A DNA stretch of 64,000 nt from Candidatus Nealsonbacteria bacterium (GTDB lineage Bacteria > Patescibacteriota > Minisyncoccia > Minisyncoccales > JAGMDC01), in the NCBI GenBank assembly GCA_030612885.1, contig JAUWMZ010000001.1, positions 68,032-132,031 on the forward strand, in the 5' to 3' direction. Positions 1-59,453 of this stretch are shown here, piece after piece (positions within the stretch are counted from its first letter, which is position 1; each line of letters opens with the position of its first letter). A program made the position numbers and the translations under genes. The notes beneath the pieces were generated by a model that searched no databases, was not told where the DNA came from, and saw nothing but the letters and a program-made list of their open reading frames with translations.

Positions 1-85
1 GTTCCTATTCTATCCGTTGAACTACGAGGGCAGGATATATACATATACATATAATACAACAAAATTATCATTTGGTCAAACTACG

Positions 86-120
86 AGGGACAGGGGAGGG
101 ACAGTCCCTCCCCTGTCCCT
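86..120. repeat. REP-like GC-rich palindrome copy 1 (AGGGACAGGGGAGGGAC-A-GTCCCTCCCCTGTCCCT)
   Basis: 17-bp perfect arms around a central A. The same 35-nt core recurs at 29982-30016 and 30733-30767, flanking a Y1/HUH transposase-like gene. TTTGGTCAAA lies on both sides (71-80 and 127-136). Confidence 0.85.
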
Positions 121-137
121 CCCCTGTTTGGTCAAAT

Positions 138-25610: not shown

Positions 25611-26909
25611 TTGATTATAATGGATATTGTGAATTTGTCAACCCCAACACCAAACAAACATAGCTTTGTTGTAGCGCGGGGGTCAATCCTTTTGCTTTTG
25701 CTTGTTAGTTTTTTGTTTTTTGAAATCGGTTTTAAGGCCGATTTTATTTTAGCCGATGAATCGTTTAATGTAGTAATCAATGAAATTACCTGGATGGGCA
25801 CAAAAGAATTTTACAACGATGAGTGGATTGAATTATACAATAATAGCGATTCAGCTGTAAATCTTAGTGGCTGGACATTAAAAGCTGATGATGGCAGCCC
25901 GGAAATTGAACTCTCTGGCAGGATTTTGAGTAAAAGTTTTTATTTGCTGGAAAGGACTGATGACGAAACAGTGGCTGGTGTTTTGGCCGACCAAATCTAT
26001 AAAGGAGGATTGGCTAACAAAGGCGAATGTCTAAAGCTTTTTGATGAACAGGAAAATTTGATTGACAAAGTGGACTGCTCTGACGGGTGGTTTGCCGGAG
26101 ACAACAAGACCAAACAAACAATGGAAAGGTCTGTTGAGGTCAAGCTTCAACAGGTTCATTGGCAGACCAGCCAAGAGCCGGGCGGCACCCCAAAAAAACA
26201 GAATAGCCAACCAGCTGAGGAATCGGTTGAGGTCAAACCTCAACCGTTCCATCAACAGGAGGTTATTGATGTCAAACTTCAACAGCCTAATTATGGCGTA
26301 GTTTATCCTTCCGGGATAGTTGTCAACGAAGTGCTCCCCTCTCCTGAAGGCCCTGATGCAGAAAATGAATGGATAGAAATTTTCAATGAAAATAATCTTG
26401 AAGTTGACATTTCCGGCTGGAAAATTTCTGACACTGTCGGCAGTGTCAAGAGTTATATTTTTCCCAAAGGAACAAAAATTTCCGGCAAAGGATTCTTGCT
26501 TCTCAACAGGCCAAAAACAAAAATTACTTTAAATAATAGCGGTGAGGGATTAAAAATTTTTAATCCCAATGGAAAAATAGTTGATGAAATAAATTTTGGA
26601 AAAGCGCTTTTGGGACAGTCGTATAATAAGTTTGACTCTCAATGGCAGTGGTCAGAGAATCTAACTCCAGGCTCTGCAAACATCGCCTCATCGGTAAAAA
26701 AAGACCTTTTAGAAAACAGTTCCCCAGAAGTTATACAGAAAAATCTGGAGGAGAACAAAAATCCTCTTTTATTGTCTTCGCTGTTAGAATCTCCATTGTC
26801 AGAGAAAAACAAGAGTTCTATATTTAAATTGTTAATGATTGCTTTATCTATTAGTGTTTGTTTTGGGTTTTTAATTTTATTTCTAAAAAAGAAATTGAAA
26901 ACTGATTAA
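25611..26909 (+). CDS. lamin-tail-domain (LTD) x2 protein with signal anchor and C-terminal TM anchor
   Basis: Two LTD signatures (VVINEITWMG...NDEWIELYN...LSGWTL and IVVNEVLPSP...ENEWIEIFN...ISGWKI). The start may be the ATG at 25620. Confidence 0.8.
   Translation: MIIMDIVNLSTPTPNKHSFVVARGSILLLLLVSFLFFEIGFKADFILADESFNVVINEITWMGTKEFYNDEWIELYNNSDSAVNLSGWTLKADDGSPEIELSGRILSKSFYLLERTDDETVAGVLADQIYKGGLANKGECLKLFDEQENLIDKVDCSDGWFAGDNKTKQTMERSVEVKLQQVHWQTSQEPGGTPKKQNSQPAEESVEVKPQPFHQQEVIDVKLQQPNYGVVYPSGIVVNEVLPSPEGPDAENEWIEIFNENNLEVDISGWKISDTVGSVKSYIFPKGTKISGKGFLLLNRPKTKITLNNSGEGLKIFNPNGKIVDEINFGKALLGQSYNKFDSQWQWSENLTPGSANIASSVKKDLLENSSPEVIQKNLEENKNPLLLSSLLESPLSEKNKSSIFKLLMIALSISVCFGFLILFLKKKLKTD
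25614..25641 (-). promoter_or_regulatory. consensus sigma70 promoter (TTGACA-N16-TATAAT) on the minus strand
   Basis: The -35 box is the reverse complement of 25636-25641. The -10 box is the reverse complement of 25614-25619. Both are exact consensus hexamers. Confidence 0.65.
26133..26283. repeat. three copies of a palindromic 19-mer (GTTGAGGTCAAACCTCAAC-like) inside the LTD linker
   Basis: Copies at 26133-26151, 26226-26244 (perfect 8-bp arms) and 26265-26283, read as VEVKLQQ / VEVKPQP / IDVKLQQ. The core GAGGTCAAACCTC is shared with the hairpin at 28178-28206. Confidence 0.8.
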
Positions 26910-29974: not shown

Positions 29975-30647
29975 AATTTTGAGGGACAGGGGAGGGACAG
30001 TCCCTCCCCTGTCCCTCTACGATATTTAGATGACGTGTCTTAAGAAAATATCCAGAAACGAGAAGGTCTTTGGCTAATTTCCGATATTCTTGTCTGGCTT
30101 TTTTAATATTATTAGAGACAAGAGATAAAATAAATTTATCCTGGGTAATTCCATCCTCTCTTAATCCAAGATGAACAGGATAACTATTCCAGGGGTCTCT
30201 CTCGGCTTCCTCTAAAAGTTTTGTCAAAATGCTTTTTGAAATATTTTGGTTATTAATACGCTGAAGTTTTTCCAGAACTTTATTTAGATTAATATAAATG
30301 GAAGTGGGTAAAAGAGCATTTTCTCCAAGTTGTTCTGCTTTAAATCTATCTTGGAACAAATGCCCTACCCGAGAATACTTTTTATTTATATGGAGACCAA
30401 AACTAGTATGGAGACTACCAATAAATTTACTAGGAGGAACTTCAGAAGTTTGTTCAATTAAATAATGAACATGGTTAGGAAGTAAATTATAGGCATGAAT
30501 GTTCACTGGATATTTTTTAAGAAATTCTTTAATTTTATAAAGATAAAATATAAAATCTTCTTTCCTGTGAAAGATATTTTCTTTAGCAACTCCTCTACTA
30601 AAAATATGCCAAAAACTTCCTTTATAAAATTTTCGTAGTTGTCTCAT
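29946..30647 (-). CDS. Y1 HUH transposase-like protein (IS200/RAYT family)
   Basis: FWHIFSRG, HUH motif LLPNHVHYLI, GHLFQDRFKAE and a Tyr-region (SIYINLNKV). I prefer the ATG at 30647 over the tracked 30725. The C-terminal residues are read through the REP palindrome and overlap the tyrS start. Confidence 0.75.
   Translation of the reverse strand: MRQLRKFYKGSFWHIFSRGVAKENIFHRKEDFIFYLYKIKEFLKKYPVNIHAYNLLPNHVHYLIEQTSEVPPSKFIGSLHTSFGLHINKKYSRVGHLFQDRFKAEQLGENALLPTSIYINLNKVLEKLQRINNQNISKSILTKLLEEAERDPWNSYPVHLGLREDGITQDKFILSLVSNNIKKARQEYRKLAKDLLVSGYFLKTRHLNIVEGQGRDCPSPVPQNYDRYQSKKN
29982..30016. repeat. REP-like GC-rich palindrome copy 2
   Basis: Same 35-nt core as 86-120. Lies 8 nt upstream of the tyrS start codon and inside the 3' end of the transposase-like ORF. 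Confidence 0.85.
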
Positions 30648-30726: not shown

Positions 30727-30773
30727 CAAACAAGGGACAGGGGAGGGACAGTCCCTCCCCTGTCCCTTGTTTG
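30727..30773. repeat. REP-like GC-rich palindrome copy 3 (extended 23-bp arms)
   Basis: CAAACAAGGGACAGGGGAGGGAC-A-GTCCCTCCCCTGTCCCTTGTTTG, immediately upstream of the transposase-like gene. Confidence 0.85.
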
Positions 30774-39320: not shown

Positions 39321-39327
39321 TTAGTTC

Positions 39328-41776: not shown

Positions 41777-41779
41777 TTT

Positions 41780-42187: not shown

Positions 42188-42198
42188 ACGAAAGTTTT

Positions 42199-43974: not shown

Positions 43975-44004
43975 ATTTTGAGATAATTGTTCAATACTCT
44001 AACT

Positions 44005-44643
44005 TTATTCCTCAAATTCTGAGGGTATTTCCGGGTAATAACCAATTTCTGCTTGGTCAGGATGATGAAGTCCCCAGAAAAGTTCAATAATTTCCGAGGT
44101 ATTTAAGGGAACAGCTTTTAGACCGCACCTTCTTAACCCTAATATTACAAATTCCATTCTTTGTTCAAGTTGTGTTTTGCATCTTTGGAATTTTTCTTCT
44201 GTTAAAGCGGGAAGTTCTGGCGCTTTGAAAATTTTTTTTGTTTCTTCATTTTTTGCTTCTAAAAGGGTGAAAGGCACAATCATAAAAAAGGATTTATTCA
44301 TAATGGTGCCGGCTTTGACCAGGCTTTCTACGAATTCTCTATAGCCTGCTGTTTGAATTTGAAGCAATTCATCTTCTTGTTCTTTTTCTATCTTGCTCAA
44401 TTTTTCAAGATAACCAGTAATATTAAGGCGTCTGGACTGAATAAGAATTTGGCAGGAGAAATCCAGAGAGTTTAAGAAATTTTGAAACTGATAAATAATA
44501 GCGGATTTTTCGTCGTCAGCTTTCAAAGCAAAATTCAAAGAGGAAACCATTACTATTCCTCTTAATGACCTGTTTTTTAGGATAACAATCCCTTTTTTAA
44601 TTTGGTCTATTTGTAAGAAATCCTGAGTACTTGACTTCACCAC
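44005..44643 (-). CDS. T4SS-cluster protein of unknown function (212 aa)
   Basis: Soluble protein 30 nt upstream of the VirB4-like gene. The pattern IVMVSSLNFALKADDEKSAIIYQFQNFLNSL resembles accessory/N-domain proteins of Gram-positive T4SS, but the assignment is tentative. Confidence 0.4.
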   Translation of the reverse strand: MVKSSTQDFLQIDQIKKGIVILKNRSLRGIVMVSSLNFALKADDEKSAIIYQFQNFLNSLDFSCQILIQSRRLNITGYLEKLSKIEKEQEDELLQIQTAGYREFVESLVKAGTIMNKSFFMIVPFTLLEAKNEETKKIFKAPELPALTEEKFQRCKTQLEQRMEFVILGLRRCGLKAVPLNTSEIIELFWGLHHPDQAEIGYYPEIPSEFEE

Positions 44644-44703
44644 GAATATTTACGAATTTTAATCACGAATATTCACAAATAAAATATTAGTGAGAATTAA
44701 TGA

Positions 44704-44724
44704 TTCTAATTCGTGAGATTATTA
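44704..44724. repeat. 21-bp direct repeat, left copy (TTCTAATTCGTGAGATTATTA)
   Basis: Identical to 45143-45163. The two copies bracket the GxxExxY gene. Confidence 0.9.
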
Positions 44725-45099
44725 ACGGATGTTTATAATCCGTTTATATTTAATACTGTCTTTTGTAATAATAATCAAAATTCCTAATTTTAGTCCGCTT
44801 GCTTTTAAATAGCTTAAAATTTGTTTTATATCTTGGGTACGAAAAGAATTTGCCACTTTCAGTTCTAAAACTATTTTATTTTCTACTATAAAATCAAGAA
44901 AACACTTTCCTATACTTTCATTTTCATATTGTAATTTTATTTCTTTTTCTTTAATATGTTTTATTTTTGCTTTGTTAAACTCTAAAGATATCGCTCTTTG
45001 ATAATATCTTTCTTGATATCCATATCCTAATCTATTATATACTCTGAAAATTATCCCAATAATTTTATAACTTAAATCTTTATGTATTAAATCTGTCAT
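44722..45099 (-). CDS. GxxExxY protein (PD-(D/E)XK nuclease-like family)
   Basis: 125 aa. IIGIIFRVYNRLGYGYQERYYQRAISLEF and DFIVENKIVLELKV match the GxxExxY family pattern. Confidence 0.85.
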   Translation of the reverse strand: MTDLIHKDLSYKIIGIIFRVYNRLGYGYQERYYQRAISLEFNKAKIKHIKEKEIKLQYENESIGKCFLDFIVENKIVLELKVANSFRTQDIKQILSYLKASGLKLGILIIITKDSIKYKRIINIR

Positions 45100-45142
45100 T
45101 CAATAAAGATTATTCGTGATAATTAGTGATTGCTTCATTTTG

Positions 45143-45163
45143 TTCTAATTCGTGAGATTATTA
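45143..45163. repeat. 21-bp direct repeat, right copy (TTCTAATTCGTGAGATTATTA)
   Basis: This right copy is identical to the left copy at 44704-44724. Confidence 0.9.
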
Positions 45164-45171
45164 GTGGTGAG

Positions 45172-45588
45172 TTACTTTGTTTTGGTTTCGAGTTGAGTAG
45201 ACACTTCCCTAAGTTTGCCGCCGGTAACAACAATAGCAGAAGCTTTTTCTTTTTCTTCTCCTAATTTTGATTTCTTTTCTTTTTTTAATTTTAAAAATTT
45301 TGGCGGAATGTCTTTTCTCTCCCAAATATATAATTTAGGGGAAGAAGAAAACATAAAAAAATCTTTTAATAAAACCAAAATAGAGCGTCCTTGAATTTTT
45401 ACAAAAATTAAAACTAAAGCGCCACCTATTAAGAAAACAGTAACAATAATCAGTTGAGCTTGAGGAAGAACAAAATAAAGAAGAAAAACAATACCTCCGG
45501 CTATGCCGATTATTAAAAACTGTTTGAAGGTAAACGGTCCTACAATTTTTGCCTCACGATCAATAAATTTTGGAACAGTAAACTGCAT
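45172..45588 (-). CDS. PrgI-like T4SS membrane protein
   Basis: MQFTVPKFIDREAKIVGPFTFKQFLIIGIAGGIVFLLYFVLP matches the PrgI-family N-terminal pattern and is followed by a second TM span. Confidence 0.55.
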   Translation of the reverse strand: MQFTVPKFIDREAKIVGPFTFKQFLIIGIAGGIVFLLYFVLPQAQLIIVTVFLIGGALVLIFVKIQGRSILVLLKDFFMFSSSPKLYIWERKDIPPKFLKLKKEKKSKLGEEKEKASAIVVTGGKLREVSTQLETKTK

Positions 45589-45590
45589 AA

Positions 45591-45992
45591 TTATTCTACG
45601 AGTTCACGATAAACATCCTTTTTATTTATTTTTTCTTTTTCTTTAATGGAAGTTTCAGGGGTAGTTTTCATTGTATAAATTTCATTCAGTTCTTTTTTAA
45701 CCGGGAAGAAAATCATTCTCTCAATTTGGAAACCAATTTTTTCCACTATATCTTTTTTAAAATTCAGCTCTTTTTCCAAAGTATTTCTGAATTCTTCTGG
45801 AGGCAAAATCCCCAACAAGACATTGCCCGTTAAGCGGGCAACTTCAGGAATTTTTGTTTCTTCAATATTATTTCTTGAGCAGATACTATAAATATCATTA
45901 GCCGTTTTCTCAGCAAAAACTGCTTCCTTTAATTCTTCTGGAAGTTTTTCATATATTTTCCAAATTTGTTTTTTAGTGTATTCCTCTGGCAT
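45591..45992 (-). CDS. hypothetical soluble protein, first gene of the T4SS-like operon
   Basis: The 133-aa ORF overlaps or abuts the PrgI-like gene, and no motif was recognised. Confidence 0.4.
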   Translation of the reverse strand: MPEEYTKKQIWKIYEKLPEELKEAVFAEKTANDIYSICSRNNIEETKIPEVARLTGNVLLGILPPEEFRNTLEKELNFKKDIVEKIGFQIERMIFFPVKKELNEIYTMKTTPETSIKEKEKINKKDVYRELVE

Positions 45993-46203
45993 AGAATTTT
46001 ATCAACTTAATTTTATCACATTTTTCATTTTACCACACTTCTATTTTATCACAAATAAAAAATAAAAAAAACAACAGGTGTCAACATCCAACACAAAACA
46101 AAAAATTATCTTTAAAATTATGTATTTGTCCTTTGCGAAAGATTGCTTATAATAAAATTAGCGAAAGCAAGACTATGCCCGTCCTCGTCCAAATTTTCTC
46201 TTT

Positions 46204-46581
46204 ATGCCTTATCGTCATCAACAATTCGTCAATAGAGAAATATATCACATTATCATCAGGGGAATCGATGATAATTTAATCTTTAGGAACGCAGACGATT
46301 ATTATCGAGCTATTTTTTCTATCTATGAATTTAATAATGCTAACGCGGTAGAAATTTATAAAAGGCGCCGTGAAATTCAAACCATAAAAAAACATTTAAA
46401 GAACAAGCCGGGGGAGGCCGGGCCTCCCCCGAGCTTTTCGTTAGGATTTTGGACGCGTATACGCAGAAGATTTGACAAATTTGGTATAGATGCTATAATT
46501 ATGGCAGCACTCTACAATAGAATATATGATAAAGGCTATGCGATGAAAGTGCTGATAGAAAGTAAAAAAAATAGGAGGTGA
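46204..46581 (+). pseudogene. decayed Y1/RAYT-like transposase fragment
   Basis: N-terminus REIYHIIIRGIDDNLIFRNADDYYRAIFSI matches the family start, but no HUH motif follows. Interrupted by GC palindrome CGGGGGAGGCC-G-GGCCTCCCCCG at 46409-46431. Confidence 0.5.
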
Positions 46582-46591
46582 AAAAGAAAAA

Positions 46592-47731
46592 ATGGGATGG
46601 AAAAAAAGAATCGCTTTAGGGCTTGTATTGATAATAGCTCTCTGGTTGCTATGGGGAACAGTAGAAATAGTAAAATGGTGGGTATTGGTCATTATAGGAA
46701 TACCCATTACAGTAATAGCAGGTTTGTTGTTTGCCTATTTCTTTTTGGCTAAGCCCAGTCAGAACCGATGGTTTACTTTTGTAAAAGAAGGAACAGCAAA
46801 AATTGTTGTCCGAGGAGATAAATTCGAGAAAGCATTGATTCAGTGGGAAGGATATACTCTCAGCGAAGAAATTAAGAAAGACGGGAAAGGAAAGATAATT
46901 CAAGATAAGTGGGATATTATTAAAGGAGAAGAAAAAGGGCATCCTCTCGGTGGTTTCAGGTATTACGGATTTTGGCCCTTCAAAGATATGTATGCCTATG
47001 ATTTTGAATGGACAGGGGTAAAAGAAAACGGTGAAATTATCCATCATCCAAAAGAAACACTGGACTATATTCTCTTAAAAGACGATGTGTATTGGGCAAA
47101 AGTAGAACAAGCAGAGGATAAAGAATTATTGCCATTAGAAGTAGAGATAATTCTAACTATTAGAATTATCAATCCTTACAAGGCGTTATTCAATGTCCAG
47201 AACTGGTTAGAAATAGTGATAAACAGAATAAAACCTTGGGTTAGAGATGCTGTCACTCATGATACCTACGAGAATCTAATCAAACAGCCTGATCGGATAG
47301 GAGAAGAGATGTACGGGAAGTTAAAGGACGCAGGATTATTGGAGAACGAATTTATTGCTCGTTATGGAGTGGATGTCAGAAAAATCGAAGTGAAAGAGAT
47401 AAATCCGCCCAAGGAATACAGAGACGTAACTCTTAGAAAATATACAGCCGAACAAGAGAAAAAAAGAATTGTCATAGAAGCTGAGGCAGAGGCAGAAAGA
47501 TTAAATACCGTCTATGGTAAGATTCAGCAATTCGAGGATTTAGGGAGATTAGTCCGAACATTGGAAGCAGTGGAGAAAAGCCCCTTAGCCGCCAGTTTGA
47601 CTGTTCAGGCAGTTCCAGGACTTCCAGAAGCTCTAAAAGGAATTTTTGGAAAATCAGCAGATACAATAAGTCAGAAAGAATTCAGAGAACTGAAAGAGAT
47701 GGTTGAGAAACTAGTGAAAGAAAAAAAATAA
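46592..47731 (+). CDS. SPFH/band-7 (prohibitin-like) membrane protein
   Basis: Strong RBS (AGGAGGTG), two N-terminal TM spans, an SPFH-like core, and a C-terminal coiled coil (EQEKKRIVIEAEAEAERL). Confidence 0.65.
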   Translation: MGWKKRIALGLVLIIALWLLWGTVEIVKWWVLVIIGIPITVIAGLLFAYFFLAKPSQNRWFTFVKEGTAKIVVRGDKFEKALIQWEGYTLSEEIKKDGKGKIIQDKWDIIKGEEKGHPLGGFRYYGFWPFKDMYAYDFEWTGVKENGEIIHHPKETLDYILLKDDVYWAKVEQAEDKELLPLEVEIILTIRIINPYKALFNVQNWLEIVINRIKPWVRDAVTHDTYENLIKQPDRIGEEMYGKLKDAGLLENEFIARYGVDVRKIEVKEINPPKEYRDVTLRKYTAEQEKKRIVIEAEAEAERLNTVYGKIQQFEDLGRLVRTLEAVEKSPLAASLTVQAVPGLPEALKGIFGKSADTISQKEFRELKEMVEKLVKEKK

Positions 47732-47784
47732 ACAAATTCATTGGGGGAGTTATAATTTTTAGCTTCCCGTTTTTTTTATTCTTG

Positions 47785-49935
47785 TTAGAATTTTCTTCCT
47801 CCTACTTTTGGCTCTTTTGGTTTTTTTACTCCTGCTCTTCCTCCTATTTCTTTTTTTTCTTTCTTTGGTTTGATTTCTCTTTCTTCTAAAAACAATTCTT
47901 TTCTATCTTTTTCTAAAATATCTTCTCTATTTACTTCTCGTAGAAGTGTTTGTGTTCTATAATTTTTTGCTTCTGCTCGGGCAGGCGCACTTTCTTCAGC
48001 TTTTATTCTATTTCCGATTGATGAAAATCCAAGAGATTGAGCCCCTGAGCTGTTGAGATAATTAGGAACATTGGGATTGAAACTCTCCGGCTTAAGATAG
48101 TGATCTCTTCCATGCTCTTCAGCAAATGCCTGAAATTCATCAATAAATTCTCTTCCAAAATTTTTGCCCGCTGCTGAGATTTGGCTTCCTGCCCAGAATT
48201 TATGCATTGCCATTTGTGCATCTTTATCATGGATAGTAGATTTATCCATAAGCTCTATGTCTTTGGCACTTAACCCAGCTATTATTGCTTCAGTTGGTGT
48301 TTTAAATCCTGCGGTCGTTATGGCTTCTTTATCAAGCATTAAACCCGCTCTTTCTTTAACATTTTCATCAAATCCCTCTCCTATTTTTTTAGCTAAATAT
48401 GGGTAGGCATCACGAATTTTGGAAAATTCCTTGGGATCAATCTTTAATGCTTGTTTTCCAATTTTTATTACCAGTGATTCTAATTCTTCCTTTTCTAAAC
48501 CTAATTTTTTCATTTCTCTAATTTGTCCTTTTTCTATAGCAGTCTGTAATGTTCCGATGCGGTTTGCTTTGCTAGCTAAAGGATCTCTTATAACATTAAG
48601 ATTGGTTGAAGCAATTCTTCCTGAAGCTTTTTCTCGTGCCCCAGATATATCTTTTTTCTCTGACTCAGTAACAGTGGCAACAGCGCCTGCTCCTTTTCTT
48701 ATTGCCCATCCAGGTACCGCGTATGCTCTCTTACCCCATTTGCTTTTAGGACTATATGCTGATAATCTTTCTGCTCCTCTTAAAACCTTTGCCGGAACTC
48801 TTTCTTTTGCAAAAGTTCCTGCTTTTCTTCCTGCCCATCTTCCTGCTTGTGTGCCTCCGGTTTTCGCGAAGCCAATAATCTTATCTGCGCCCATTGCTCC
48901 GGTTTGTAATGAGGCAAAGAAGCCGACAATAAGAAAAAGAAGTGGTACGGTATATTGGAACAACACAGCAAATCCGCTAAGTCCCCCAGTAGGGTCACTG
49001 GTAAGGTTTCCTTTACTCATTTCTCCTATCAGCATATTTGATAAATAGATAAAGAAAGCAGCGGGAATTCCAATAATGCACCATTGAAAGAATTGTTTCC
49101 ACCACATATCCCAAACGCCTTTTAACGCCGGTAAGATATAACAGAAAAATGCCAAGGGAGACAAAATAATTAAAATCCAAAGAGCAACATACCTTACTGC
49201 AAATAAAAGAGCAAAAAGGAGAAAGATGATTGTTGCAACCAGATTAAAAACCACCAATACTATGCCTGCTCCGAGTCTTTCTCCTGGATCAAGATTTTCG
49301 TTAAACAAAGAACCGATTTGATAAGTCATTGTTTCAATAAAACTTCTGTCTAATGTCCCGGCTGTTAAAAAGTGATTCATTGCTACATTGGAAATATCAA
49401 TAAAAAAACCGCAGATTACCGGGGTGAAATTGATTAAAAGGGCAATGCCGATTAAAAGAGGCAAAAGTTTTTGCGCCTGATATTCTTTTATCCGTAATAT
49501 AGTAGCCAGGGCGACAATCACAAATCCGAGAACAATAAACATATTAGTAAAATCTCGGACTATTCCCCAACCTTCCTGTACGATAAGATTGTCAGGACCA
49601 GTGAAAGATATGTTTATAAAACCAGTACTGGTTACCCAGTTTAATAGGGCATAGGAGAGAACTAAAAAAGGTGTGGTGGCGGTCAACAAAGCTGATATTA
49701 TAAGAGATAAACCGCCGCTAAAGAAGTCCGTTGCTATGCCGGTTAAGCCATGCTGTTCAGGTGAGCCGAGAGGGTTAGTAAAAATTTGAAAAAAATTATC
49801 TATGTAGGTAGACCAAAAACCAGCTTGAGCTGGAACAGTGGGCAAGAACAATCCTAAACCAAAAATAATAAGAAATAACAAGACAATTGTTTTTTTAGAA
49901 AAAAAATGAGAGAATTTTTTAAGTTTTTGAAACAT
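47785..49935 (-). CDS. large polytopic membrane protein, VirB6/TrbL-like candidate channel subunit
   Basis: 716 aa with about 8 hydrophobic spans in the N-terminal half and a Lys/Gly-rich soluble tail. The assignment rests on context and topology only. Confidence 0.45.
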   Translation of the reverse strand: MFQKLKKFSHFFSKKTIVLLFLIIFGLGLFLPTVPAQAGFWSTYIDNFFQIFTNPLGSPEQHGLTGIATDFFSGGLSLIISALLTATTPFLVLSYALLNWVTSTGFINISFTGPDNLIVQEGWGIVRDFTNMFIVLGFVIVALATILRIKEYQAQKLLPLLIGIALLINFTPVICGFFIDISNVAMNHFLTAGTLDRSFIETMTYQIGSLFNENLDPGERLGAGIVLVVFNLVATIIFLLFALLFAVRYVALWILIILSPLAFFCYILPALKGVWDMWWKQFFQWCIIGIPAAFFIYLSNMLIGEMSKGNLTSDPTGGLSGFAVLFQYTVPLLFLIVGFFASLQTGAMGADKIIGFAKTGGTQAGRWAGRKAGTFAKERVPAKVLRGAERLSAYSPKSKWGKRAYAVPGWAIRKGAGAVATVTESEKKDISGAREKASGRIASTNLNVIRDPLASKANRIGTLQTAIEKGQIREMKKLGLEKEELESLVIKIGKQALKIDPKEFSKIRDAYPYLAKKIGEGFDENVKERAGLMLDKEAITTAGFKTPTEAIIAGLSAKDIELMDKSTIHDKDAQMAMHKFWAGSQISAAGKNFGREFIDEFQAFAEEHGRDHYLKPESFNPNVPNYLNSSGAQSLGFSSIGNRIKAEESAPARAEAKNYRTQTLLREVNREDILEKDRKELFLEEREIKPKKEKKEIGGRAGVKKPKEPKVGGRKF

Positions 49936-50702: not shown

Positions 50703-51617
50703 TTAGTCCCCTTTAAAGGTTTTTGTCAAATTGAGCCAGTCCTGGATGGTCAGGGTTTCAGCTCGCTGAGATGGTTGAATATTATTTTGAATCAGCCATT
50801 TTTTAATTTTTTCCTTGTCTAATTTCAGTTCTTTGACAAACTCAGGACAAGCTCCTGAAAAATTATTCAAAATCTGTTTTCTGGGATGAGAAAATCCAGC
50901 CTTTACAATCTTGAAGAACAAATCAACGAGTCCGGGTCTCGTTGTTAGTTTTTGAGGTTGAGGAGTTATTTTTATAATTGCGGAGTCAACCTTTGGTTCT
51001 GGCCAAAATGATTTTTTAGAAATGTAGTCAATAATCTTTGCTTGAGCGTAAAATTGAACCGAAACAGCTAAAATACTCATTTTTGGTGGCTTAGCGCCCG
51101 CCTCGCCCGCCGAGCGGGCTCGGCGAGGCGGGCAAATTCTTTGAGCCATTTCTTTCTGAACTATGAGAATCATCTGGCAAGGTCTCATCTGGCGATGTTT
51201 GACATCGCCAGCTTCATCAACAGCCTCAAGAAATTTTCTGATGACTGGCGCAGTTAAATAAAAAGGCAAATTACTAAGTATCTTGTATCTTATATCTCGT
51301 ATTTTGTATTTCAAAATGTCTTCTTGGACGATTTCAATATTTTGAAAATCCTTTAAGGTTTCTTTTAGAATCTCGCACATTTTTATGTCTTTTTCGCAAG
51401 CAATAACTCTTTTTGCTTTTCTTGCTATTTCTTGAGTTAAAGTGCCAATGCCTGGTCCGATTTCCAAAATAGTATCAAAAGGTTTTAAATCAGCTGATTT
51501 GATAACTTTTCTAACTACTGATTTGTCAATCAAAAAATTCTGGCCAAATTTTTTTGATGGTCTAATATTATACTTTTTTAAGATTTCTTTGATTGTTTTT
51601 TTTGATGCCAGATTCAT
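50703..51617 (-). CDS. rsmA: 16S rRNA (adenine1518/1519-N6)-dimethyltransferase RsmA/KsgA
   Basis: KKFGQNFLID, ILEIGPGIGTLT and SNLPFYLT motifs. Longer than usual because of GC-rich palindromic segments read in frame. Confidence 0.9.
   Translation of the reverse strand: MNLASKKTIKEILKKYNIRPSKKFGQNFLIDKSVVRKVIKSADLKPFDTILEIGPGIGTLTQEIARKAKRVIACEKDIKMCEILKETLKDFQNIEIVQEDILKYKIRDIRYKILSNLPFYLTAPVIRKFLEAVDEAGDVKHRQMRPCQMILIVQKEMAQRICPPRRARSAGEAGAKPPKMSILAVSVQFYAQAKIIDYISKKSFWPEPKVDSAIIKITPQPQKLTTRPGLVDLFFKIVKAGFSHPRKQILNNFSGACPEFVKELKLDKEKIKKWLIQNNIQPSQRAETLTIQDWLNLTKTFKGD
51096..51133. repeat. GC-rich nested palindrome inside rsmA
   Basis: GCCCGCCTCGCC (51096-51107) pairs with GGCGAGGCGGGC (51122-51133). 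There is an inner GCCCGC-CGA-GCGGGC hairpin. Read in frame as CPPRRARSAGEAG. Confidence 0.85.
51189..51211. repeat. 9-bp-arm palindrome inside rsmA (CTGGCGATG-TTTGA-CATCGCCAG)
   Basis: Perfect arms. Read in frame as AGDVKHRQ within a segment that is longer than in the E. coli KsgA sequence as I recall it. Confidence 0.8.
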
Positions 51618-52760: not shown

Positions 52761-54287
52761 TCAGTTTTCTTTTATTCTATACATCAGAGCTTCGGAAAGA
52801 TGGTCAAAAGAGATACTTTCTGACTGGTCTAAATCAGCAATAGTTCGGCTGACTTTGAGAGTGCGATGAAATCCGCGGGCAGAAAGTTTGCCGGAATCAA
52901 CATATTTTTTCAATAATGCCTGGGATTTCAAGTCAATTTGGCAGAATTTCTTAATTTCAGGAATTGACATTTCAGAATTAGTCAAACTCAACGAGAACCG
53001 TTCTCGCCCGCTCAAATTTTGCTTTGCAAAACTTAGGCGGGCTCGTTGAATTTGACGGGCTTTGATCACTTTTTCTCTTATTTCAGAACTGGAATTTTTT
53101 TCATCTTCAGCCACTAGCCTCTCATATTTCAGTTGAGGAACTTCAATAAAAAGGTCAATTCTGTCCATTAAAGGTCCGGATAGTTTTCTTCTATATTTAC
53201 TAATTTGAGAAGGGGTACAGGTACATTGTCTTTCCGGGTCTCCATAATAACCGCAGGGGCAAGGGTTAGAAGCAGCAACTAAGGTAAAGCGGGCTGGCAA
53301 GGTTAAGCGGTTTTTCGCCCGGAGAATGGTAATTTCCCCTTCTTCAATCGGCTGGCGTAAAGATTCTAAAACATCTCTGTGAAATTCTGGAAATTCATCT
53401 AAAAATAAAATGCCTCTGTGAGCTAAAGTGATTTCTCCGGGTCTGGGAGGATTGCCTCCGCCAATCAGGGCTGGTTCAGATGAAGCATGATGAGGCGAGC
53501 GAAAAGGCCTTAATTTAATTAAAGCCGTTCCCAAAGGCAGAAGTCCGCTGATGCTGTAAATTTTAGTGACTTCCAGGGATTCTTCAAAAGAAAGAGGGGG
53601 CAGGATAGAAGGAATGGCTTTGGCTAAAAGTGTTTTTCCAGCGCCAGGCGGTCCCAACATCAAAAGATGATGGCTGCCAGCAGCAGCAATTTCCAATGCC
53701 CTTTTAGCGTATCCCTGCCCTTTAATCCAGGCAAGGTCAACAGAATAGTTCTGTTCCTCCAAAAATTTTTCCTTGTCTGTTTGAAAAGAAGAAATCATTT
53801 TCTTTCCTTCCAAGTAATCAATGACTTCTTTTAAGGTTTCTACTCCGATTATTTTTATTGCTTCTGGCTTGGCATCAGAGGCATCATCTTCTTTAATTAA
53901 GTTTATTAAACCTGCCTCTGAAGCATTAGCTTTTGGCAGGATTATTTCTTTTAATCCGTTTTTCTTAGCTGCCAATACCAAGGAAAGAGTTCCTTTTATT
54001 GGTCTTAGCTTCCCGTCTAAAGCTAATTCTCCAACAAAAATTTTATTCCGAGCATCAAATCTTACTTGCTCAGAGGCAGATAAAAAAGCTAAAGCAATAG
54101 GCAGGTCGTATAAAGAACCTTCTTTTTTTAAATCAGCCGGAGCTAAATTTACTAAAACCCGAATGGGCTGGCTAAAAGGAGATTTAAATTTAGAACTGTT
54201 TATTGCTGAACCAACTCTTTCTTTTGACTCTTCAACCGCTTTGTCAGGCAGGCCGACGATATTAAGGGAGGCGATAATACCCCATCT
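52761..54287 (-). pseudogene. comM: comM (YifB-family Mg-chelatase-like competence ATPase), 5'-truncated by insertion
   Basis: Frame is open from 54287. Hand translation gives ...SLNIVGLPDKAVEESKERVGSAINSSKFKSPFSQPIRVLVNLAPADLKKEGSLYDLPIALAFL..., then GPPGAGKTL and ILFLDEFPEF. No start codon and no first 25-30 codons are present. A recombinase gene abuts it. Confidence 0.8.
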
Positions 54288-55840
54288 TCAATAGGAAACA
54301 TCTGCACTAATCGTTGATTATCTACTGGGACATATCCAGTTATCCACGCTTCACCCTTGCGTGAATCAAGTATTATTTTGTCAAGGATACAATTTAGAAA
54401 TTGTTGTTTTTGTTCAGGAGTTATAGATTCTAACCGTTGCATAACTAAACGAGAAAAATGTTTGACAGCCTCAATAAACATAGGTTTGCTAACTGCTTGT
54501 GTTAATTTACTTTCATTCTCTTTTATTTTATCTTCCAGTTCCTTTTCTATCTGAGTAAGTTCACTGATTTTCTTTAGAAATAATTCTTTAGGTATATTCC
54601 CCTCTGTATAAAGTTCTAATAGTTTATCTTTTTTATAATCTATTTTTTCTTTTTCTCTGGACCAATCTTTTTCCTCTTTTTCTAATAACTTTTGATTTTC
54701 AATAACTTTTTTAGTTAAAAGTGAAATACCACTAATAAGTATTTTAGGATTTTTTACTGCGTTGCTGACAGCAGTCCATACGCTATTATCTAACTGATTA
54801 ACCCTTACCATCTTTGCATTACAATCTTTAGGAAAGGGGAATTTTTTATGACGATTGTTGCATCTGTAATACTGATGACTTCTGACAGTCTCGCCTGTAA
54901 AACTTGACCCACACAATTTACATTTTATAAGTCCACTTAGTAAATAGAAATGTTTTCTGTCAGCATACGGCTTATAATTTTTTGATAATAGTTTCTGAAC
55001 AAATCTAAATTTCTCTTTAGATATTATAACAGGAAATTTAATAGGAATCCATTCGCTCCTATCTCTTTTTCTCCTTCCAGTTTTTATTGTTCTTTTATAT
55101 TTTTTTCCATTTTCAGTTTCCACGCTATAATTTTTACAATAATAACCTGTTCCAACACAAGACTCATTTCTTAAAATCCTTCCTACTACACTATTGTTCC
55201 ATTTTATTCCTCCTTTTCTAGGTTTAATACCCTTCAATGTTAATTCTTTAACAACCCTGCTCAAACTCTGAAATTTAATATAAAAGTCAAACATTAAAAT
55301 TACAATTTCTGCTTCTTTCTTGTTAATTTTATAATAACCCTCTTTTTCTGGAGTTTTTTTAATATAATCATAGCCAAATGGAGGAGTGCTTCCTACGATT
55401 CCTTTTTGTTTCGCCTTAAAAATTCTCCCCCTTCTGGTCCTTTCTAAAATCCTTTCTTTTTCGTATTCTGCTGTGGCACCAAGCACATTAAACATAAATC
55501 TTCCTTCTGGAGTGTCAGAGATTGGTTTATCACCTATAAAGATTTCTATGTTTGCTTTTTTAAACTCTTCAACTATAATCCCCTGCTGATAAAGGTTTCT
55601 GGATAACCGGTCCACCGAATGAACATATACGGCTTCAAATAAACCCTTTTTAACATCTCTCCTTAAACAATCTAAAGATGGTCTATCTAAACTCTCTCCA
55701 GAGTAGCCGTTATCTAAATATTCCTCAACAATTTCAAAATTCTTGCAGATTTCTCTTAATTCTGCTATTTGCGATTTAATTGTCTTTTGTTCTTCCTGTT
55801 TCTCGGTAGAAACACGACAATATAATGCTACTTTTTTCAT
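54200..55840 (-). CDS. large serine recombinase (integrase)
   Basis: The catalytic region reads VALYCRVSTEKQ and VHSVDRLSRN. A recombinase domain follows, then a zinc ribbon (CKLCGSSFTGE...YYRCNN) and a coiled coil. Confidence 0.9.
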   Translation of the reverse strand: MKKVALYCRVSTEKQEEQKTIKSQIAELREICKNFEIVEEYLDNGYSGESLDRPSLDCLRRDVKKGLFEAVYVHSVDRLSRNLYQQGIIVEEFKKANIEIFIGDKPISDTPEGRFMFNVLGATAEYEKERILERTRRGRIFKAKQKGIVGSTPPFGYDYIKKTPEKEGYYKINKKEAEIVILMFDFYIKFQSLSRVVKELTLKGIKPRKGGIKWNNSVVGRILRNESCVGTGYYCKNYSVETENGKKYKRTIKTGRRKRDRSEWIPIKFPVIISKEKFRFVQKLLSKNYKPYADRKHFYLLSGLIKCKLCGSSFTGETVRSHQYYRCNNRHKKFPFPKDCNAKMVRVNQLDNSVWTAVSNAVKNPKILISGISLLTKKVIENQKLLEKEEKDWSREKEKIDYKKDKLLELYTEGNIPKELFLKKISELTQIEKELEDKIKENESKLTQAVSKPMFIEAVKHFSRLVMQRLESITPEQKQQFLNCILDKIILDSRKGEAWITGYVPVDNQRLVQMFPIEDGVLSPPLISSACLTKRLKSQKKELVQQ

Positions 55841-55918
55841 AGTTTTTCTAATTTAAGACCCCGCTAAGCTGTTGGGCTGTGCGGGGTCATAAAATAAATA
55901 CCCAACAGCTTTAATTTT

Positions 55919-58454: not shown

Positions 58455-59393
58455 ATGAAAATAAAGATGAAAAATTATATTGTCTATCAAAGAGTTTCCA
58501 CTAAAGAGCAAGCAAAGGAAGGGATTTCATTAGAGGCAATGTTTAATTCCTGTATTAGGTATATCAAAAACCAAGACAATGGAAGATTAGTTAAGGTTTA
58601 TGAAGATGGAGGAATTTCAGGAGGTAGTATTAGTAAAAGACCAGCATTAAAAGAGTTGATAAAAGACATTGAGACGCAACGCTTATCCATTGATATAGTT
58701 TTAGTTTGGAATTTAGATAGGTTGAGTAGGAGCCGTAAGGACCTAGATTTCCTAAAGGATTTTTTTGACAAAAAGAAGATAGAACTCTATTCTGTTTCCG
58801 ATGGAAAGATTGACACTTCAACTGCTTCTGGAAATCTTACTTTCGGCATAAAGGGAGTTGTCTCACAATATTATCGTGATGATATTGCAGAAAAAACTCA
58901 TAACGCTTTATACAATAAAGCAACTAATGGAGAATTTAACGGGGGAATGCCTCCTTTTGGTTATTTACTTAATGAGAAAAATAAATATGTAATTGATGGA
59001 GAAAAATCCGAAATTATAAAATATATTTATCAAAGATTTCTTAAATTAAAATCCTTTTGTAAATTAGCGAAGGAATTAAGTGAAAAAGGAAAATTGTCTC
59101 CAAAAGGAAGAAAGTGGTCCGATGTTCAGATAAAAAGAATTCTAACTCATCCCGTTTATAGAGGGGCTTATTCTTGGAATAGGACCGGAAAAAGAAAAAT
59201 AAATGAAGAGAATTTGATTATAAGAGAAAATTCTCATCCAGCAATTATTAGTAAAGAATTATGGGATAAGGTCCAAAAAATCATCTCTTCTAAAAGTTCA
59301 ACTAAAATACAAAAACAAGAAAAGGATTATATTGTAGAAACCCCGTTATTTACCGATGGAAATAGGAATAGAGAATTAAAATATAAAATTTAA
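58455..59393 (+). CDS. serine recombinase, short form (resolvase + recombinase domains, no zinc ribbon/coiled coil)
   Basis: IVYQRVSTKEQ, VWNLDRLSRS, and a recombinase domain (PPFGY...HPVYRG...HPAIISKELW). Ends where large serine recombinases normally continue. Confidence 0.85.
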   Translation: MKIKMKNYIVYQRVSTKEQAKEGISLEAMFNSCIRYIKNQDNGRLVKVYEDGGISGGSISKRPALKELIKDIETQRLSIDIVLVWNLDRLSRSRKDLDFLKDFFDKKKIELYSVSDGKIDTSTASGNLTFGIKGVVSQYYRDDIAEKTHNALYNKATNGEFNGGMPPFGYLLNEKNKYVIDGEKSEIIKYIYQRFLKLKSFCKLAKELSEKGKLSPKGRKWSDVQIKRILTHPVYRGAYSWNRTGKRKINEENLIIRENSHPAIISKELWDKVQKIISSKSSTKIQKQEKDYIVETPLFTDGNRNRELKYKI

Positions 59394-59453
59394 TATTTAC
59401 TTTCTTTTCCAGTGGGGCTATTATTAAGTTAGAACAATTAAATATTCAAATTG

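What the first reader, a model, noticed from the sequence alone, without database searches (positions are those of the whole stretch)
50925..51211. GC-rich palindromes inserted in-frame in rsmA (RPE-like behaviour)
In an AT-rich gene, three palindromic segments are translated in frame:
- A strongly GC-rich nested palindrome (51096-51133, read as CPPRRARSAGEAG).
- CTGGCGATG-N5-CATCGCCAG (51189-51211, read as AGDVKHRQ).
- CAACGAG-N7-CTCGTTG (about 50929-50949, read as TTRPGLVD).

Compared with the E. coli KsgA sequence as I recall it, the first two fall in segments that are about 9-13 residues longer here. This resembles Rickettsia palindromic elements, which colonise coding genes without breaking the frame. 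I am not aware of this being described for this kind of genome.
Basis: partly seen in the sequence, partly recalled or inferred. Interest (0 to 1): 0.65.

Follow-up and report, generated by a model that had tools for sequence, protein, structure and literature searches.

The report
Hairpin mini-element inserted in-frame in rsmA
A 36-base GC-rich DNA hairpin has been inserted, exactly in frame, into the 16S rRNA methyltransferase gene of an AT-rich Patescibacteria (CPR) genome; the same 36 bases sit in other essential genes of other CPR bacteria, so small hairpins colonise protein-coding genes here much as Rickettsia palindromic elements do.

Summary
The three palindromes exist. Two are far beyond chance; the third is weak.

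Palindrome 1 (51096-51133) is a true insertion. It is exactly 36 nt (12 codons, PPRRARSAGEAG) between the Cys and Ala codons of RsmA's conserved QRIC|AKPP loop. The closest orthologues lack it. At least four separate RsmA lineages carry it at the same nucleotide. It differs by 0-2/36 nt between them, against about 34% in the flanking codons.

The same 36 nt occur in frame in gatB, gatC, valS, an RNase T-like gene and one unnamed gene. Both orientations and five of six reading frames are used. No frame contains a stop codon. The AlphaFold model places the insert in a disordered loop.

Non-coding copies lie next to small GIY-YIG nuclease genes at tRNA-Gln. Hairpins there share the same arms but measure 28-60 nt. 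Only the 3n-long version was seen in genes.

Palindrome 2 belongs to another dispersed hairpin family with co-varying stems. Palindrome 3 is not an insertion.

The window also holds RAYT-like transposases flanked by their own hairpins. The mobilising enzyme is unidentified.

Verdict: RPE-like or intragenic-REP-like behaviour, apparently undescribed in CPR. It is a new variant of a known kind.

The parts
50703..51617 (-). rsmA/ksgA (16S rRNA adenine dimethyltransferase), 304 aa; host gene
   Evidence: ORF. Pfam RrnaAD, E = 5.6e-48. 7322 homologues; the named ones are RsmA of Parcubacteria/Patescibacteria.
51096..51133 (-). Palindrome 1: the 36-nt inserted hairpin element CCCGCCTCG(C)CGAGCCCGCTCG(G)CGGGCGAGGCGGG plus the flanking G/C that extend it to 38 nt. 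It encodes PPRRARSAGEAG (residues 163-174).
   Evidence: Absent from P0002, P0003, P0004, P0006, P0026 and P0053. The empty site reads ATT TGC|GCC AAA.
51189..51211 (-). Palindrome 2: 10-bp perfect hairpin CTGGCGATGT/ACATCGCCAG with a TCAAA-type loop. It belongs to the 'GTCAAAC-loop' hairpin family and encodes AGDVKHRQ.
51171..51224 (-). Region around palindrome 2 with two diverged short tandem duplications (15 nt: 51171-51185 / 51186-51200; 12 nt: 51201-51212 / 51213-51224). These account for the +9 residues relative to P0002 and P0003.
   Evidence: Read directly from the codon alignment and the sequence. This is inference.
50924..50944 (-). Palindrome 3: CAACGAG-N7-CTCGTTG, encoding TTRPGLVD. 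It lies in the ancestral linker and is not an insertion.
   Evidence: It is identical in P0002. P0005 shows one compensatory pair. P0009 has GAGGCCGGGCCTC at this position.
50834..50854 (-). 21-nt in-frame extra segment (GACPEFV), a decayed copy of the GACPELVEG insert seen in P0002 and P0015
29946..30725 (-). RAYT-like Y1 (HUH) transposase gene. Pfam Y1_Tnp 47 bits (cut-off 23). Nearest NCBIfam is REP-associated tyrosine transposase, at 35 bits, below its cut-off of 80.
29981..30017 (.). Hairpin family A (GAGGGACAGGGGAGGGACAGTCCCTCCCCTGTCCCTC) at the 3' end of the RAYT-like ORF
30727..30773 (.). Hairpin family A copy immediately 5' of the RAYT-like gene
85..127 (.). Third copy of hairpin family A
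46204..46431 (+). Remnant of a second RAYT-like gene, ending in hairpin family B (CGGGGGAGGCCGGGCCTCCCCCG, 46409-46431). About 600 bp were deleted between two family-B hairpins that are still present in the syntenic relative L004.
26224..26246 (+). Family C hairpin CGGTTGAGGTCAAACCTCAACCG, in frame (VEVKPQP) inside ORF 25611-26909. A decayed copy lies at 26133-26151.

Best explanation
Palindrome 1 is a copy of a small hairpin element that spreads between sites and between Patescibacteria lineages. It is not ancestral RsmA sequence.

Shown:
- Exactly 36 nt are inserted between the Cys and Ala codons of the conserved QRIC|AKPP loop.
- The element is an imperfect palindrome: 9-12-bp outer stem, inner stem, and a 4-nt bulge that gives it an orientation.
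- It is 12 codons long and has no stop codon in any of the six frames, so any insertion into a coding sequence keeps the frame.
- The same 36 nt are in frame in six protein families, in both orientations, and also in non-coding DNA.

Inferred:
- It is transcribed and translated through, giving a disordered, Arg/Pro/Gly-rich surface loop that RsmA tolerates.
- Selection only filters where copies survive, namely loops and 3n length.
- Copying is done in trans by a structure- or sequence-specific DNA enzyme.

Which enzyme is not established. My leading candidate (about 0.35) is the small free-standing GIY-YIG nuclease. Its gene, next to tRNA-Gln, is preceded in all 8 contexts examined by a hairpin with this family's arms (diverged in L056), with the nuclease ORF intact in 7. 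The mechanism would be break-and-repair copying. The second candidate (about 0.25) is a RAYT-like Y1 transposase, like those in this window that carry their own hairpin families.

Palindrome 2 is a member of a second hairpin family. It has been at this RsmA position since before the window/P0002/P0003/P0026 split. It is kept or re-made perfect by compensatory or template-switch changes.

Palindrome 3 is ordinary linker sequence with a weak hairpin.
For: Insertion status:
- In the alignment of 26 and then 120 orthologues, PPRRARS[A/S]GEAG is absent from the closest ones (P0002 at 85%, P0003, P0004, P0006). It is present at the same column in P0005/7/8/10/25 and P0033.
- At DNA level it is a clean 36-nt indel at TGC|GCN.
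- P0053, with an empty site, is nested among filled relatives and has near-identical flanks.

Scattered distribution and recency:
- Filled alleles fall in at least 4 separate clades of an NJ tree of 124 RsmAs.
- Across 8 alleles the element differs by 0-2/36 nt (2.4%) and the flanking 120 nt by 34%. Third positions differ at 0-1/12 in the element against about 20/40 in the flanks.
- The only variation is one compensatory pair, C..G versus A..T.

Dispersal:
- The GTDB scan gave 7 hits, all Patescibacteria, one per genome.
- The JGI metagenome scan gave 24 hits.
- Hosts named by Pfam are GatB, ValRS, an RNase_T exonuclease and GatC, plus an unnamed protein carrying the element at one site in opposite orientations (L014/L025).
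- Five of six frames are used and none has a stop codon.

Structure: the insert lies in coil 162-181, with pLDDT below 50 at 168-175.

GIY-YIG link:
- L011, L029 and L030 carry the identical 36-mer inside a duplicated tRNA-Gln 5' half, just upstream of a GIY-YIG ORF.
- Homologues in further lineages (the L043 group, L053, L056, L058) show the same layout. Their hairpins have the same or nearly the same arms, CCCGCCTCG/CGAGGCGGG (diverged in L056), but other interiors and lengths of about 28-60 nt.

RAYT precedent: three RAYT-like genes (window 29946-30725, L004, L008) are flanked by their own hairpins, and two of them contain one in frame.

General pattern: most other lineage-specific RsmA inserts for which I have DNA are also near-perfect hairpins.
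Against: - No enzyme is tied to the element by anything but adjacency.
- No GIY-YIG gene and no tRNA lie in the window or near any coding copy.
- No RAYT in the DNA I hold is flanked by this hairpin family.
- Copy number is very low for a selfish repeat: one exact copy in each GTDB genome that had any, and no diverged copies in about 396 kb of held DNA.
- Most hits are in rsmA at one site and in one orientation. That could instead mean an rsmA-specific function, or old inheritance under DNA-level constraint.
- Only exact matches to this one variant were searched, so the site list is ascertainment-biased.
- Insertion flanks share little beyond a 5' G, often TG or TGG.
- The NJ tree is crude.
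- Translation through the hairpin is assumed, not shown.
Confidence: 0.6

Rival explanations
1. Ancient, vertically inherited RsmA insert. The hairpin entered rsmA once in a deep ancestor and is kept by selection on the DNA or RNA structure, or on the Arg-rich loop contacting rRNA. Most lineages then lost it precisely. Copies elsewhere are rare secondary events.
For: - The site and orientation are the same in every rsmA allele.
- One compensatory pair preserves the stem.
- Most database hits are in rsmA.
- P0009 carries a different or decayed 36-nt GC-rich segment at the same site.
Against: - It needs many independent, nucleotide-precise losses across the tree.
- It needs all 36 positions, third codon positions included, to stay frozen while flanking third positions are saturated. 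A structural constraint alone would allow many compensatory changes, and only one is seen.
- The identical 36-mer is in frame in five other protein families, in other frames and orientations, and in non-coding DNA.
Confidence: 0.15
2. RAYT-mobilised REP. The element is a repetitive palindrome of the REP type, cut and pasted as single-stranded DNA by a RAYT-like Y1 (HUH) transposase acting in trans. The window's own RAYT-like genes presumably do this for their own hairpins.
For: - The window encodes a RAYT-like Y1_Tnp protein flanked on both sides by hairpin family A, and the remnant of a second with family B.
- L008 has a RAYT-like gene directly downstream of rsmA, flanked by and containing family C-like hairpins.
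- The element is a 36-nt imperfect palindrome with a bulge, as Y1 substrates are.
- The insertion shows no target duplication.
- Intragenic REPs are documented in other phyla (PMC3733652).
Against: - No RAYT in the held DNA is flanked by this hairpin family.
- There is no conserved GTAG or CGTC tag beside the element.
- One exact copy per genome in the GTDB hits.
- Recurrent use of one rsmA site is not expected from a 4-5-nt Y1 target.
Confidence: 0.25
3. In-situ palindrome formation. The hairpins are not mobile. They are created and perfected locally by template-switch (quasipalindrome) mutation in a lineage with reduced DNA repair.
For: - Palindrome 2 overlaps native codons. The window differs from L004 by CCT to CAT, which perfects the stem.
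- At the same RsmA position, L012 has a 16-bp perfect stem whose left arm includes the conserved Leu-Glu codons.
- Stems co-vary among P0002, P0026, P0003 and the window around a constant GTCAAAC-type loop.
Against: - It cannot explain identical 36-mers at unrelated loci in unrelated genomes.
- It cannot explain 20-23-nt identities between family C copies in different genes.
- It is best seen as a process that maintains hairpins once present, and it fits palindrome 2 only.
Confidence: 0.1
4. The hairpin is not translated. It is bypassed by the ribosome or removed from the mRNA, like the GC-cluster 'byps' of Magnusiomyces mitochondria.
For: - It is a very stable GC-only hairpin (RNA fold about -34 kcal/mol) in an AT-rich gene.
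- A precedent is cited in PMC8811140.
Against: - Every coding copy is exactly 36 nt and stop-free, which bypassing would not require.
- Non-3n relatives (38 and 49 nt) were seen only outside genes.
- There are no matching take-off and landing codons at the borders.
Confidence: 0.03

Closest known systems
Rickettsia palindromic elements (RPE; Ogata et al. 2000, Claverie & Ogata 2003, recalled from my own knowledge; the short RPE-4/RPE-6 equal CGTC-tagged REPs per PMC3733652)
   Same: - Palindromic DNA inserted in frame into many unrelated, often essential genes of a small reduced genome.
- Lands in surface loops.
- Shows presence/absence between relatives.
- Has decayed copies.
   Different: - 36 nt here, against about 100-150 nt for RPE-1.
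- GC-rich in a 34% GC genome.
- One exact copy per genome in the GTDB hits, not tens.
- Near-identical across very divergent host lineages.
- Recurrent at one rsmA site.
- No sequence relationship was tested or is expected.
REP / RAYT systems (REPtrons) and intragenic REPs (Di Nocera et al. 2013, PMC3733652)
   Same: - A 20-40-nt imperfect palindrome.
- RAYT-like Y1 transposase genes flanked by cognate hairpins are present in this very window.
- REPs inside genes are documented in several phyla.
   Different: - No GTAG or CGTC tag.
- Low copy number.
- Mostly intragenic.
- This particular hairpin family was not found flanking a RAYT.
- The RAYT-like proteins score below NCBIfam's RAYT cut-off (35-40 bits against 80).
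Mitochondrial GC clusters of yeasts, including optional in-frame clusters in var1, and GC-rich palindromes flanking tRNA genes in Neurospora mtDNA (PMC8811140)
   Same: - Short GC-rich palindromes in an AT-rich compact genome.
- Optional in-frame inserts in a protein gene.
- Variable loops with conserved stem ends.
- Act as recombination and deletion hotspots (compare the RAYT deletion between two family-B hairpins).
- Association with tRNA genes.
   Different: - Organellar, with high copy number.
- Terminal AG/TAG repeats taken as target duplications, which are not seen here.
- Proposed to move at the RNA level or by gene conversion.
Free-standing GIY-YIG homing endonucleases in tRNA gene regions (e.g. 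phage T4 SegB, PMC2330249)
   Same: A small stand-alone GIY-YIG gene wedged against a tRNA gene, sporadically present (L030 keeps only a remnant). This would explain same-site recurrence if the nuclease cuts the empty rsmA site.
   Different: - No activity is known for these proteins.
- The thing that recurs at the rsmA site is a 36-nt hairpin, not the nuclease gene.
- No flank co-conversion is visible around the rsmA insert.

Membership tests
Rickettsia palindromic elements (RPE) | Palindromic repeat inserted in frame in protein-coding genes, in permissive surface regions | tested here: met
   - 36-nt in-frame insert in RsmA, GatB, GatC, ValRS, an RNase_T-like protein and one unnamed protein.
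- Low-confidence coil in the AF2 model.
Rickettsia palindromic elements (RPE) | Multi-copy within one genome (tens of copies) | tested here: not met
   - One exact match in each of the 7 GTDB genomes that had any.
- No diverged copy in about 396 kb of held DNA.
- Whole genomes were not available for an approximate-match census.
Rickettsia palindromic elements (RPE) | Sequence homology to RPE-1..8 and a Rickettsia host | not tested
   No RPE sequences were at hand. The host is Patescibacteria and the element is 92% GC in its stem, so homology is not expected.
REP / RAYT (REPtron) | 20-40-nt imperfect palindrome | tested here: met
   36-38 nt, with outer and inner stems and a 4-nt bulge.
REP / RAYT (REPtron) | Conserved unpaired GTAG or CGTC tetranucleotide at one end (PMC3733652) | tested here: not met
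   The flanks of 17 distinct flank contexts share no tag. CGTC occurs only inside the stem of the A/T variant.
REP / RAYT (REPtron) | Copies flank a RAYT (Y1 HUH transposase) gene | tested here: not met
   - tblastn with two RAYT-like proteins found such genes in the window, L004 and L008-type loci.
- These are flanked by other hairpin families (A, B, C), never by this one.
- The feature is met for families A-C.
REP / RAYT (REPtron) | High copy number, mainly extragenic | tested here: not met
   Low copy number. 6 of about 11 distinct sites are inside genes.
Homing element served by a free-standing GIY-YIG endonuclease | Adjacent GIY-YIG ORF | tested here: inconclusive
   - Met at the non-coding copies: L011 and L029, with a remnant in L030. 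The ORFs are PF01541 GIY-YIG.
- Met for family relatives in the other lineages examined.
- Not met at any coding copy, nor in the window.
Homing element served by a free-standing GIY-YIG endonuclease | Sporadic presence at one conserved site of a conserved gene, with sharp borders | tested here: met
   The same TGC|GCN site is used in at least 4 separate RsmA clades, with empty sites in the nearest relatives.
Homing element served by a free-standing GIY-YIG endonuclease | Endonuclease cleaves the empty site; co-conversion of flanks | not testable with these tools
   Cleavage needs biochemistry. No flank co-conversion is visible: flanking synonymous sites are as diverged as elsewhere, which argues against classical homing.
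Quasipalindrome / template-switch products | One arm is native sequence and the other is its inverted copy; mutations perfect the stem | tested here: met
   Met for palindrome 2 only:
- CCT to CAT perfects the stem relative to L004.
- The L012 stem includes native Leu-Glu codons.
- Stems co-vary.
Not met for palindrome 1, which has identical copies at unrelated loci.

The most novel reading that the evidence does not exclude
The 36-nt hairpin is a minimal, site-seeking mobile element of Patescibacteria whose home is a GIY-YIG nuclease/tRNA-Gln cassette. The nuclease, or a hairpin-specific partner, would copy the hairpin into a few conserved sites such as RsmA QRIC|AKPP. That would make it the smallest homing-type insert known. 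It would also make hairpin insertion a general source of loop-length variation in CPR proteins, since most lineage-specific RsmA inserts examined are hairpins.
Probability: 0.2. Interest if true: 0.85.

Novelty: new variant of a known kind. Interest (0 to 1): 0.66.

Why it matters
CPR/Patescibacteria genomes are tiny and gene-dense, and their proteins are known for odd insertions. This result gives a concrete DNA-level source for some of them. Short hairpin elements are 3n long and stop-free in all frames, so they can land inside essential translation genes without killing them.

Consequences:
- It extends the 'selfish DNA inside genes' phenomenon of Rickettsia and yeast mitochondria to a third, unrelated group of reduced AT-rich genomes.
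- It offers a marker of recent DNA exchange between distant CPR lineages, because the 36-mers are near-identical in hosts whose synonymous sites are saturated.
- It points to two testable enzyme candidates: a small GIY-YIG nuclease at tRNA-Gln, and RAYT-like transposases.
- It is also a practical warning for annotation and for structure or phylogeny work on CPR proteins. Such inserts should be masked.

Tried and rejected
- Peptide search for the six frame translations of the element in the 5.8-billion-protein database. Nothing scored at E <= 10, because the matches are too short. One search was wasted.
- Viral contigs scanned for the 30-nt core and for the tRNA-D-loop/hairpin junction: no hits. 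No evidence for a phage vector.
- Rfam on the window and on 8 element-bearing loci: only LOOT RNA and tRNAs, and no RNA family covers the hairpin.
- Diverged copies sought by blastn-short in all held DNA: none.
- Common target motif sought in the insertion flanks: only a 5' G (often TG or TGG). A possible resemblance between the rsmA site and the tRNA-Gln anticodon arm was judged too weak to use.
- GTAG tags next to family A hairpins: present at two of three copies but in inconsistent orientation, so not used.
- Assembly or amplification artefact: rejected, because the same insert is found in independent NCBI, ENA, JGI and Logan assemblies.
- Horizontal transfer of an rsmA segment by homologous recombination: rejected, because identity stops at the element borders.
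- Literature searches for any description in CPR/Patescibacteria found nothing relevant.
Full report
**1. What is at the coordinates**

The finding lies in a 304-aa ORF on the minus strand (50703-51617). The ORF is RsmA/KsgA (Pfam RrnaAD, E = 5.6e-48). Its named homologues come from Parcubacteria/Patescibacteria. The window is 34% GC.

All three palindromes are present.

| Palindrome | Coordinates | Anatomy | DNA fold z-score | Shuffles folding as well |
|---|---|---|---|---|
| 1 | 51096-51133 | 12-bp perfect arms, nested 8-bp pair | -3.8 | 0 of 200 |
| 2 | 51189-51211 | 10-bp stem, 3-nt loop | -5.8 | 0 of 200 |
| 3 | 50924-50944 | 7-bp arms, 7-nt loop | -2.5 | 7 of 200 |

It is not convincing on its own.

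The whole window has about ten distinct perfect hairpins with GC-rich stems. First-order Markov re-sampling of the window predicts 0.65 hits.

**2. Palindrome 1 is an insertion**

I aligned 26 and then 120 orthologues.
- The peptide PPRRARS(A/S)GEAG is missing from the closest ones: P0002 (85% identical), P0003, P0004 and P0006.
- It is present at the same column in more distant ones: P0005/7/8/10/25 and P0033.

At DNA level the difference is exactly 36 nt between the Cys and Ala codons: ATT TGC | CCG CCT ... GCG GGC | GCN AAR.
- Empty sites read ATT TGC GCC AAA.
- P0053 has an empty site, is nested among filled relatives, and has almost identical flanks.
- On a rough NJ tree of 124 RsmAs, the filled alleles fall in at least four separate clades.

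**3. The element is far more conserved than its host gene**

I compared eight filled rsmA alleles.
- The 36 nt differ at 0-2 positions (2.4%).
- The 120 flanking coding nucleotides differ at 34%.
- Third codon positions differ at 0-1 of 12 inside the element and at about 20 of 40 outside it.
- The single variation is a compensatory pair, C..G in the window and L012 and A..T elsewhere.
- Identity stops exactly at the element borders. Transfer of a larger rsmA segment is therefore excluded.

This pattern fits recent, repeated arrival. The alternative is an extraordinary constraint on every nucleotide.

**4. The same 36 nt are elsewhere**

Two exact-pattern scans were run.

| Collection | Hits | Notes |
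|---|---|---|
| One genome per GTDB species | 7 | All Patescibacteria, one per genome |
| JGI metagenome contigs | 24 | Most in rsmA at the same site |

Besides rsmA, which accounts for six different flank alleles, the element is in frame in other genes.

| Host | Locus | Peptide encoded |
|---|---|---|
| GatB | L010 | RPPRPTSGLVEAG |
| ValRS | L013 | PASPDERARRGG |
| RNase T-like exonuclease | L018 | PASTSPLVGRGG |
| GatC | L033 | SRLARRAGSSRR |
| Unnamed protein | L014 and L025 | Same site, opposite orientations |

- Five of the six reading frames are used, and none of the six contains a stop codon.
- Every coding copy is 36 nt long.
- The AlphaFold2 model of the window's RsmA (mean pLDDT 80) puts residues 162-181 in coil, with pLDDT below 50 at 168-175.
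- Relative to B. subtilis KsgA, this loop and the one holding palindrome 2 are each about 10 residues longer.

**5. Where the hairpin family lives outside genes**

Three non-coding copies (L011, L029, L030) share one layout.
- Each lies inside a partial duplicate of the 5' part of a tRNA-Gln gene.
- Each is directly upstream of an 80-90-aa GIY-YIG nuclease ORF. In L030 only a remnant of the ORF is left.
- The intact tRNA-Gln gene follows immediately.

I fetched homologues of that nuclease and their contexts in further lineages: the L043 group, L053, L056 and L058.
- All have the order GIY-YIG, then tRNA-Gln.
- All are preceded by a tRNA 5'-half copy interrupted in the D-loop (..TCTAATGG^TAGGAC..) by a hairpin.
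- These hairpins have the same outer arms, CCCGCCTCG/CGAGGCGGG, diverged to CCTGCCTCG/CGAGGCAAG in L056.
- Their interiors differ, and their lengths are about 28, 38, 38, 49 and 60 nt.

So length is free outside genes, while only the 12-codon version was seen inside genes. I searched for that version alone, so this contrast still needs a proper census.

**6. Other hairpin families and RAYT-like transposases**

The window encodes a Y1 (HUH) transposase at 29946-30725.
- Pfam Y1_Tnp scores 47 bits, above the cut-off.
- The nearest NCBIfam is REP-associated tyrosine transposase, at 35 bits, below its cut-off of 80.
- The gene is flanked on both sides by hairpin family A, and a third copy lies at 85-127.

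A second RAYT-like gene at 46204 is a stump.
- In the syntenic relative L004 it is intact (240 aa).
- There it carries hairpin family B in frame in its linker and again downstream.
- The window has lost the roughly 600 bp between the two hairpins.

In L008 a RAYT-like gene lies directly downstream of rsmA. It is flanked by, and contains in frame, family C-like hairpins.

Most other lineage-specific RsmA inserts for which I could get DNA are also near-perfect hairpins. Examples are EVEPPKEVQPR, HPVKPREAGIPPSAELFNRAG, LPAGRQG and HRASACGGEGKDEDKVLIAP.

**7. Palindrome 2**

Its sequence, CTGGCGATGTCAAACATCGCCAG, differs from an intergenic hairpin in L004, CTGTTGATGTCAAACATCAACAG, only by two compensatory pairs.

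At the same RsmA position, relatives carry hairpins with the same loop but other stems.

| Source | Hairpin at this RsmA position |
|---|---|
| P0002 (20 nt also at window 26224) | GGTTGAGGTCAAACCTCAAC |
| P0026 | TGTTGAAGTCGGACTTCAACA |
| P0003 (one mismatch) | CTGGCGATGTCAAACCTCGCCAG |
| L012 (16-bp stem that includes the native Leu-Glu codons) | GGAATTGTTCGGGGTCAGACCCCGAACAATTCC |

- The window's CCT to CAT change (Pro to His) perfects the stem.
- The extra nine residues look like diverged tandem duplications of each arm. This is my reading.

Palindrome 2 therefore belongs to a dispersed family that has long resided here. It is kept perfect by compensatory or template-switch change. It is not a clean recent insert.

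**8. Palindrome 3**

The segment has the same length as in hairpin-free relatives and in B. subtilis KsgA. P0005 shows one compensatory pair, and P0009 has the family-B core at this position. That is suggestive only.

**9. Mechanism**

Shown:
- The insertion is precise, 3n long and stop-free.
- It lies in a loop.
- Copies are dispersed and near-identical.
- The family is adjacent to GIY-YIG/tRNA-Gln cassettes.
- RAYT-like genes with cognate hairpins lie in the same genomes.

Inferred:
- The element is translated through.
- It is copied in trans by a DNA enzyme.
- Selection filters the sites where copies survive.

| Candidate route | My weight | For | Against |
|---|---|---|---|
| GIY-YIG nuclease | about 0.35 | Direct adjacency to this hairpin family; a long recognition site would explain same-site recurrence | No flank co-conversion; no nuclease gene near coding copies |
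| RAYT-like enzyme | about 0.25 | Known hairpin-moving chemistry, present in the window | Never seen flanked by this hairpin family |
| Vertical inheritance under constraint | about 0.15 | Same site and orientation in every rsmA allele | Needs many precise losses and frozen third positions |
| Translational bypass | about 0.03 | Very stable hairpin; a mitochondrial precedent | All coding copies are 3n and stop-free |

Pure in-situ origin is excluded for palindrome 1.

**10. Comparison with the known**

The behaviour matches Rickettsia palindromic elements and intragenic REPs (PMC3733652). It also closely parallels mitochondrial GC clusters. These include optional in-frame clusters in yeast var1 and GC palindromes next to tRNA genes in Neurospora mitochondria (PMC8811140).

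It is not a member of RPE or of tagged REP families.
- Size, composition and copy number do not fit.
- It has no GTAG or CGTC tag.
- It was not found flanking a RAYT gene.

Four literature searches found no description of this in CPR/Patescibacteria. I rate it a new variant of a known kind.

Noticed in passing
window 29946-30773 and 85-127: A RAYT-like Y1 transposase gene is flanked on both sides by the same 33-47-nt GC-rich hairpin (family A), with a third copy near the window start. This is a REPtron-like unit in a CPR genome.
   Followed up: partly
window 46204-46431 versus L004 14984-15817: A second RAYT-like gene is reduced to its first 70 codons. About 600 bp were deleted between two copies of hairpin family B that are still present in the syntenic relative. 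The intact relative carries the hairpin in frame in its own linker.
   Followed up: yes
L011 2997-3394; L029 610-995; L030 3990-4175; L043/L053/L056/L058 about 1380-1835: Small GIY-YIG nuclease genes sit immediately 5' of tRNA-Gln genes across Patescibacteria. They are preceded by a duplicated tRNA 5' half that is interrupted by GC-rich hairpins. Some loci have a second GIY-YIG gene 3' of the tRNA, behind a compound hairpin. I found no description of this cassette.
   Followed up: partly
L010 (gatB), L033 (gatC), tRNA-Gln loci: Two of the six protein hosts of the 36-mer are subunits of the Glu-tRNA(Gln) amidotransferase, and all non-coding cassette copies are at tRNA-Gln. This may be coincidence. 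No tRNA lies near the gat copies.
   Followed up: partly
L033 1636-1693: In gatC the element is flanked by an 11-nt direct repeat (TTTTGTGTTTT). No other site shows this. Whether it is a target duplication or a pre-existing repeat is unknown.
   Followed up: no
window 25611-26909, especially 26120-26250: A secreted or membrane protein ORF has a linker built of repeated VEVK(L/P)QQ-type motifs. These are encoded by family C hairpins (26224-26246 perfect, 26133-26151 decayed), next to a GC-rich island at 26161-26191.
   Followed up: partly
window 52761-55840 and 58455-59393, versus L004 7182-8777: The ComM-like Mg-chelatase gene is 406 aa here but 531 aa in the syntenic relative. Here it abuts large serine recombinase genes. 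In L006 the same gene is split around recombinase genes. This suggests an integrated element in comM.
   Followed up: partly
window 59452-59567: LOOT RNA (Rfam RF03000, 91.8 bits) lies between a serine recombinase gene and downstream small ORFs.
   Followed up: no
window 37902-49935: A type IV secretion/conjugation-like cluster (TrbL-like, TraC-like, VirB4/TraG-like ATPase, PrgI-like, T4SS pilin) lies next to rsmA. It is syntenic in L004, L042 and L006.
   Followed up: no
window 55857-55888 and 2123-2154: Two further GC-rich 8-9-bp hairpins. One is intergenic, upstream of the recombinase gene. The other is inside a PilM/FtsA-like ORF and shows no evident length change.
   Followed up: no
L014 (345-aa ORF) and L025: The unnamed host protein is studded with several other GC-rich, low-complexity segments (for example PPERLCRAGSRSGG and ERSERAQDD) that look like further translated repeat elements.
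   Followed up: no
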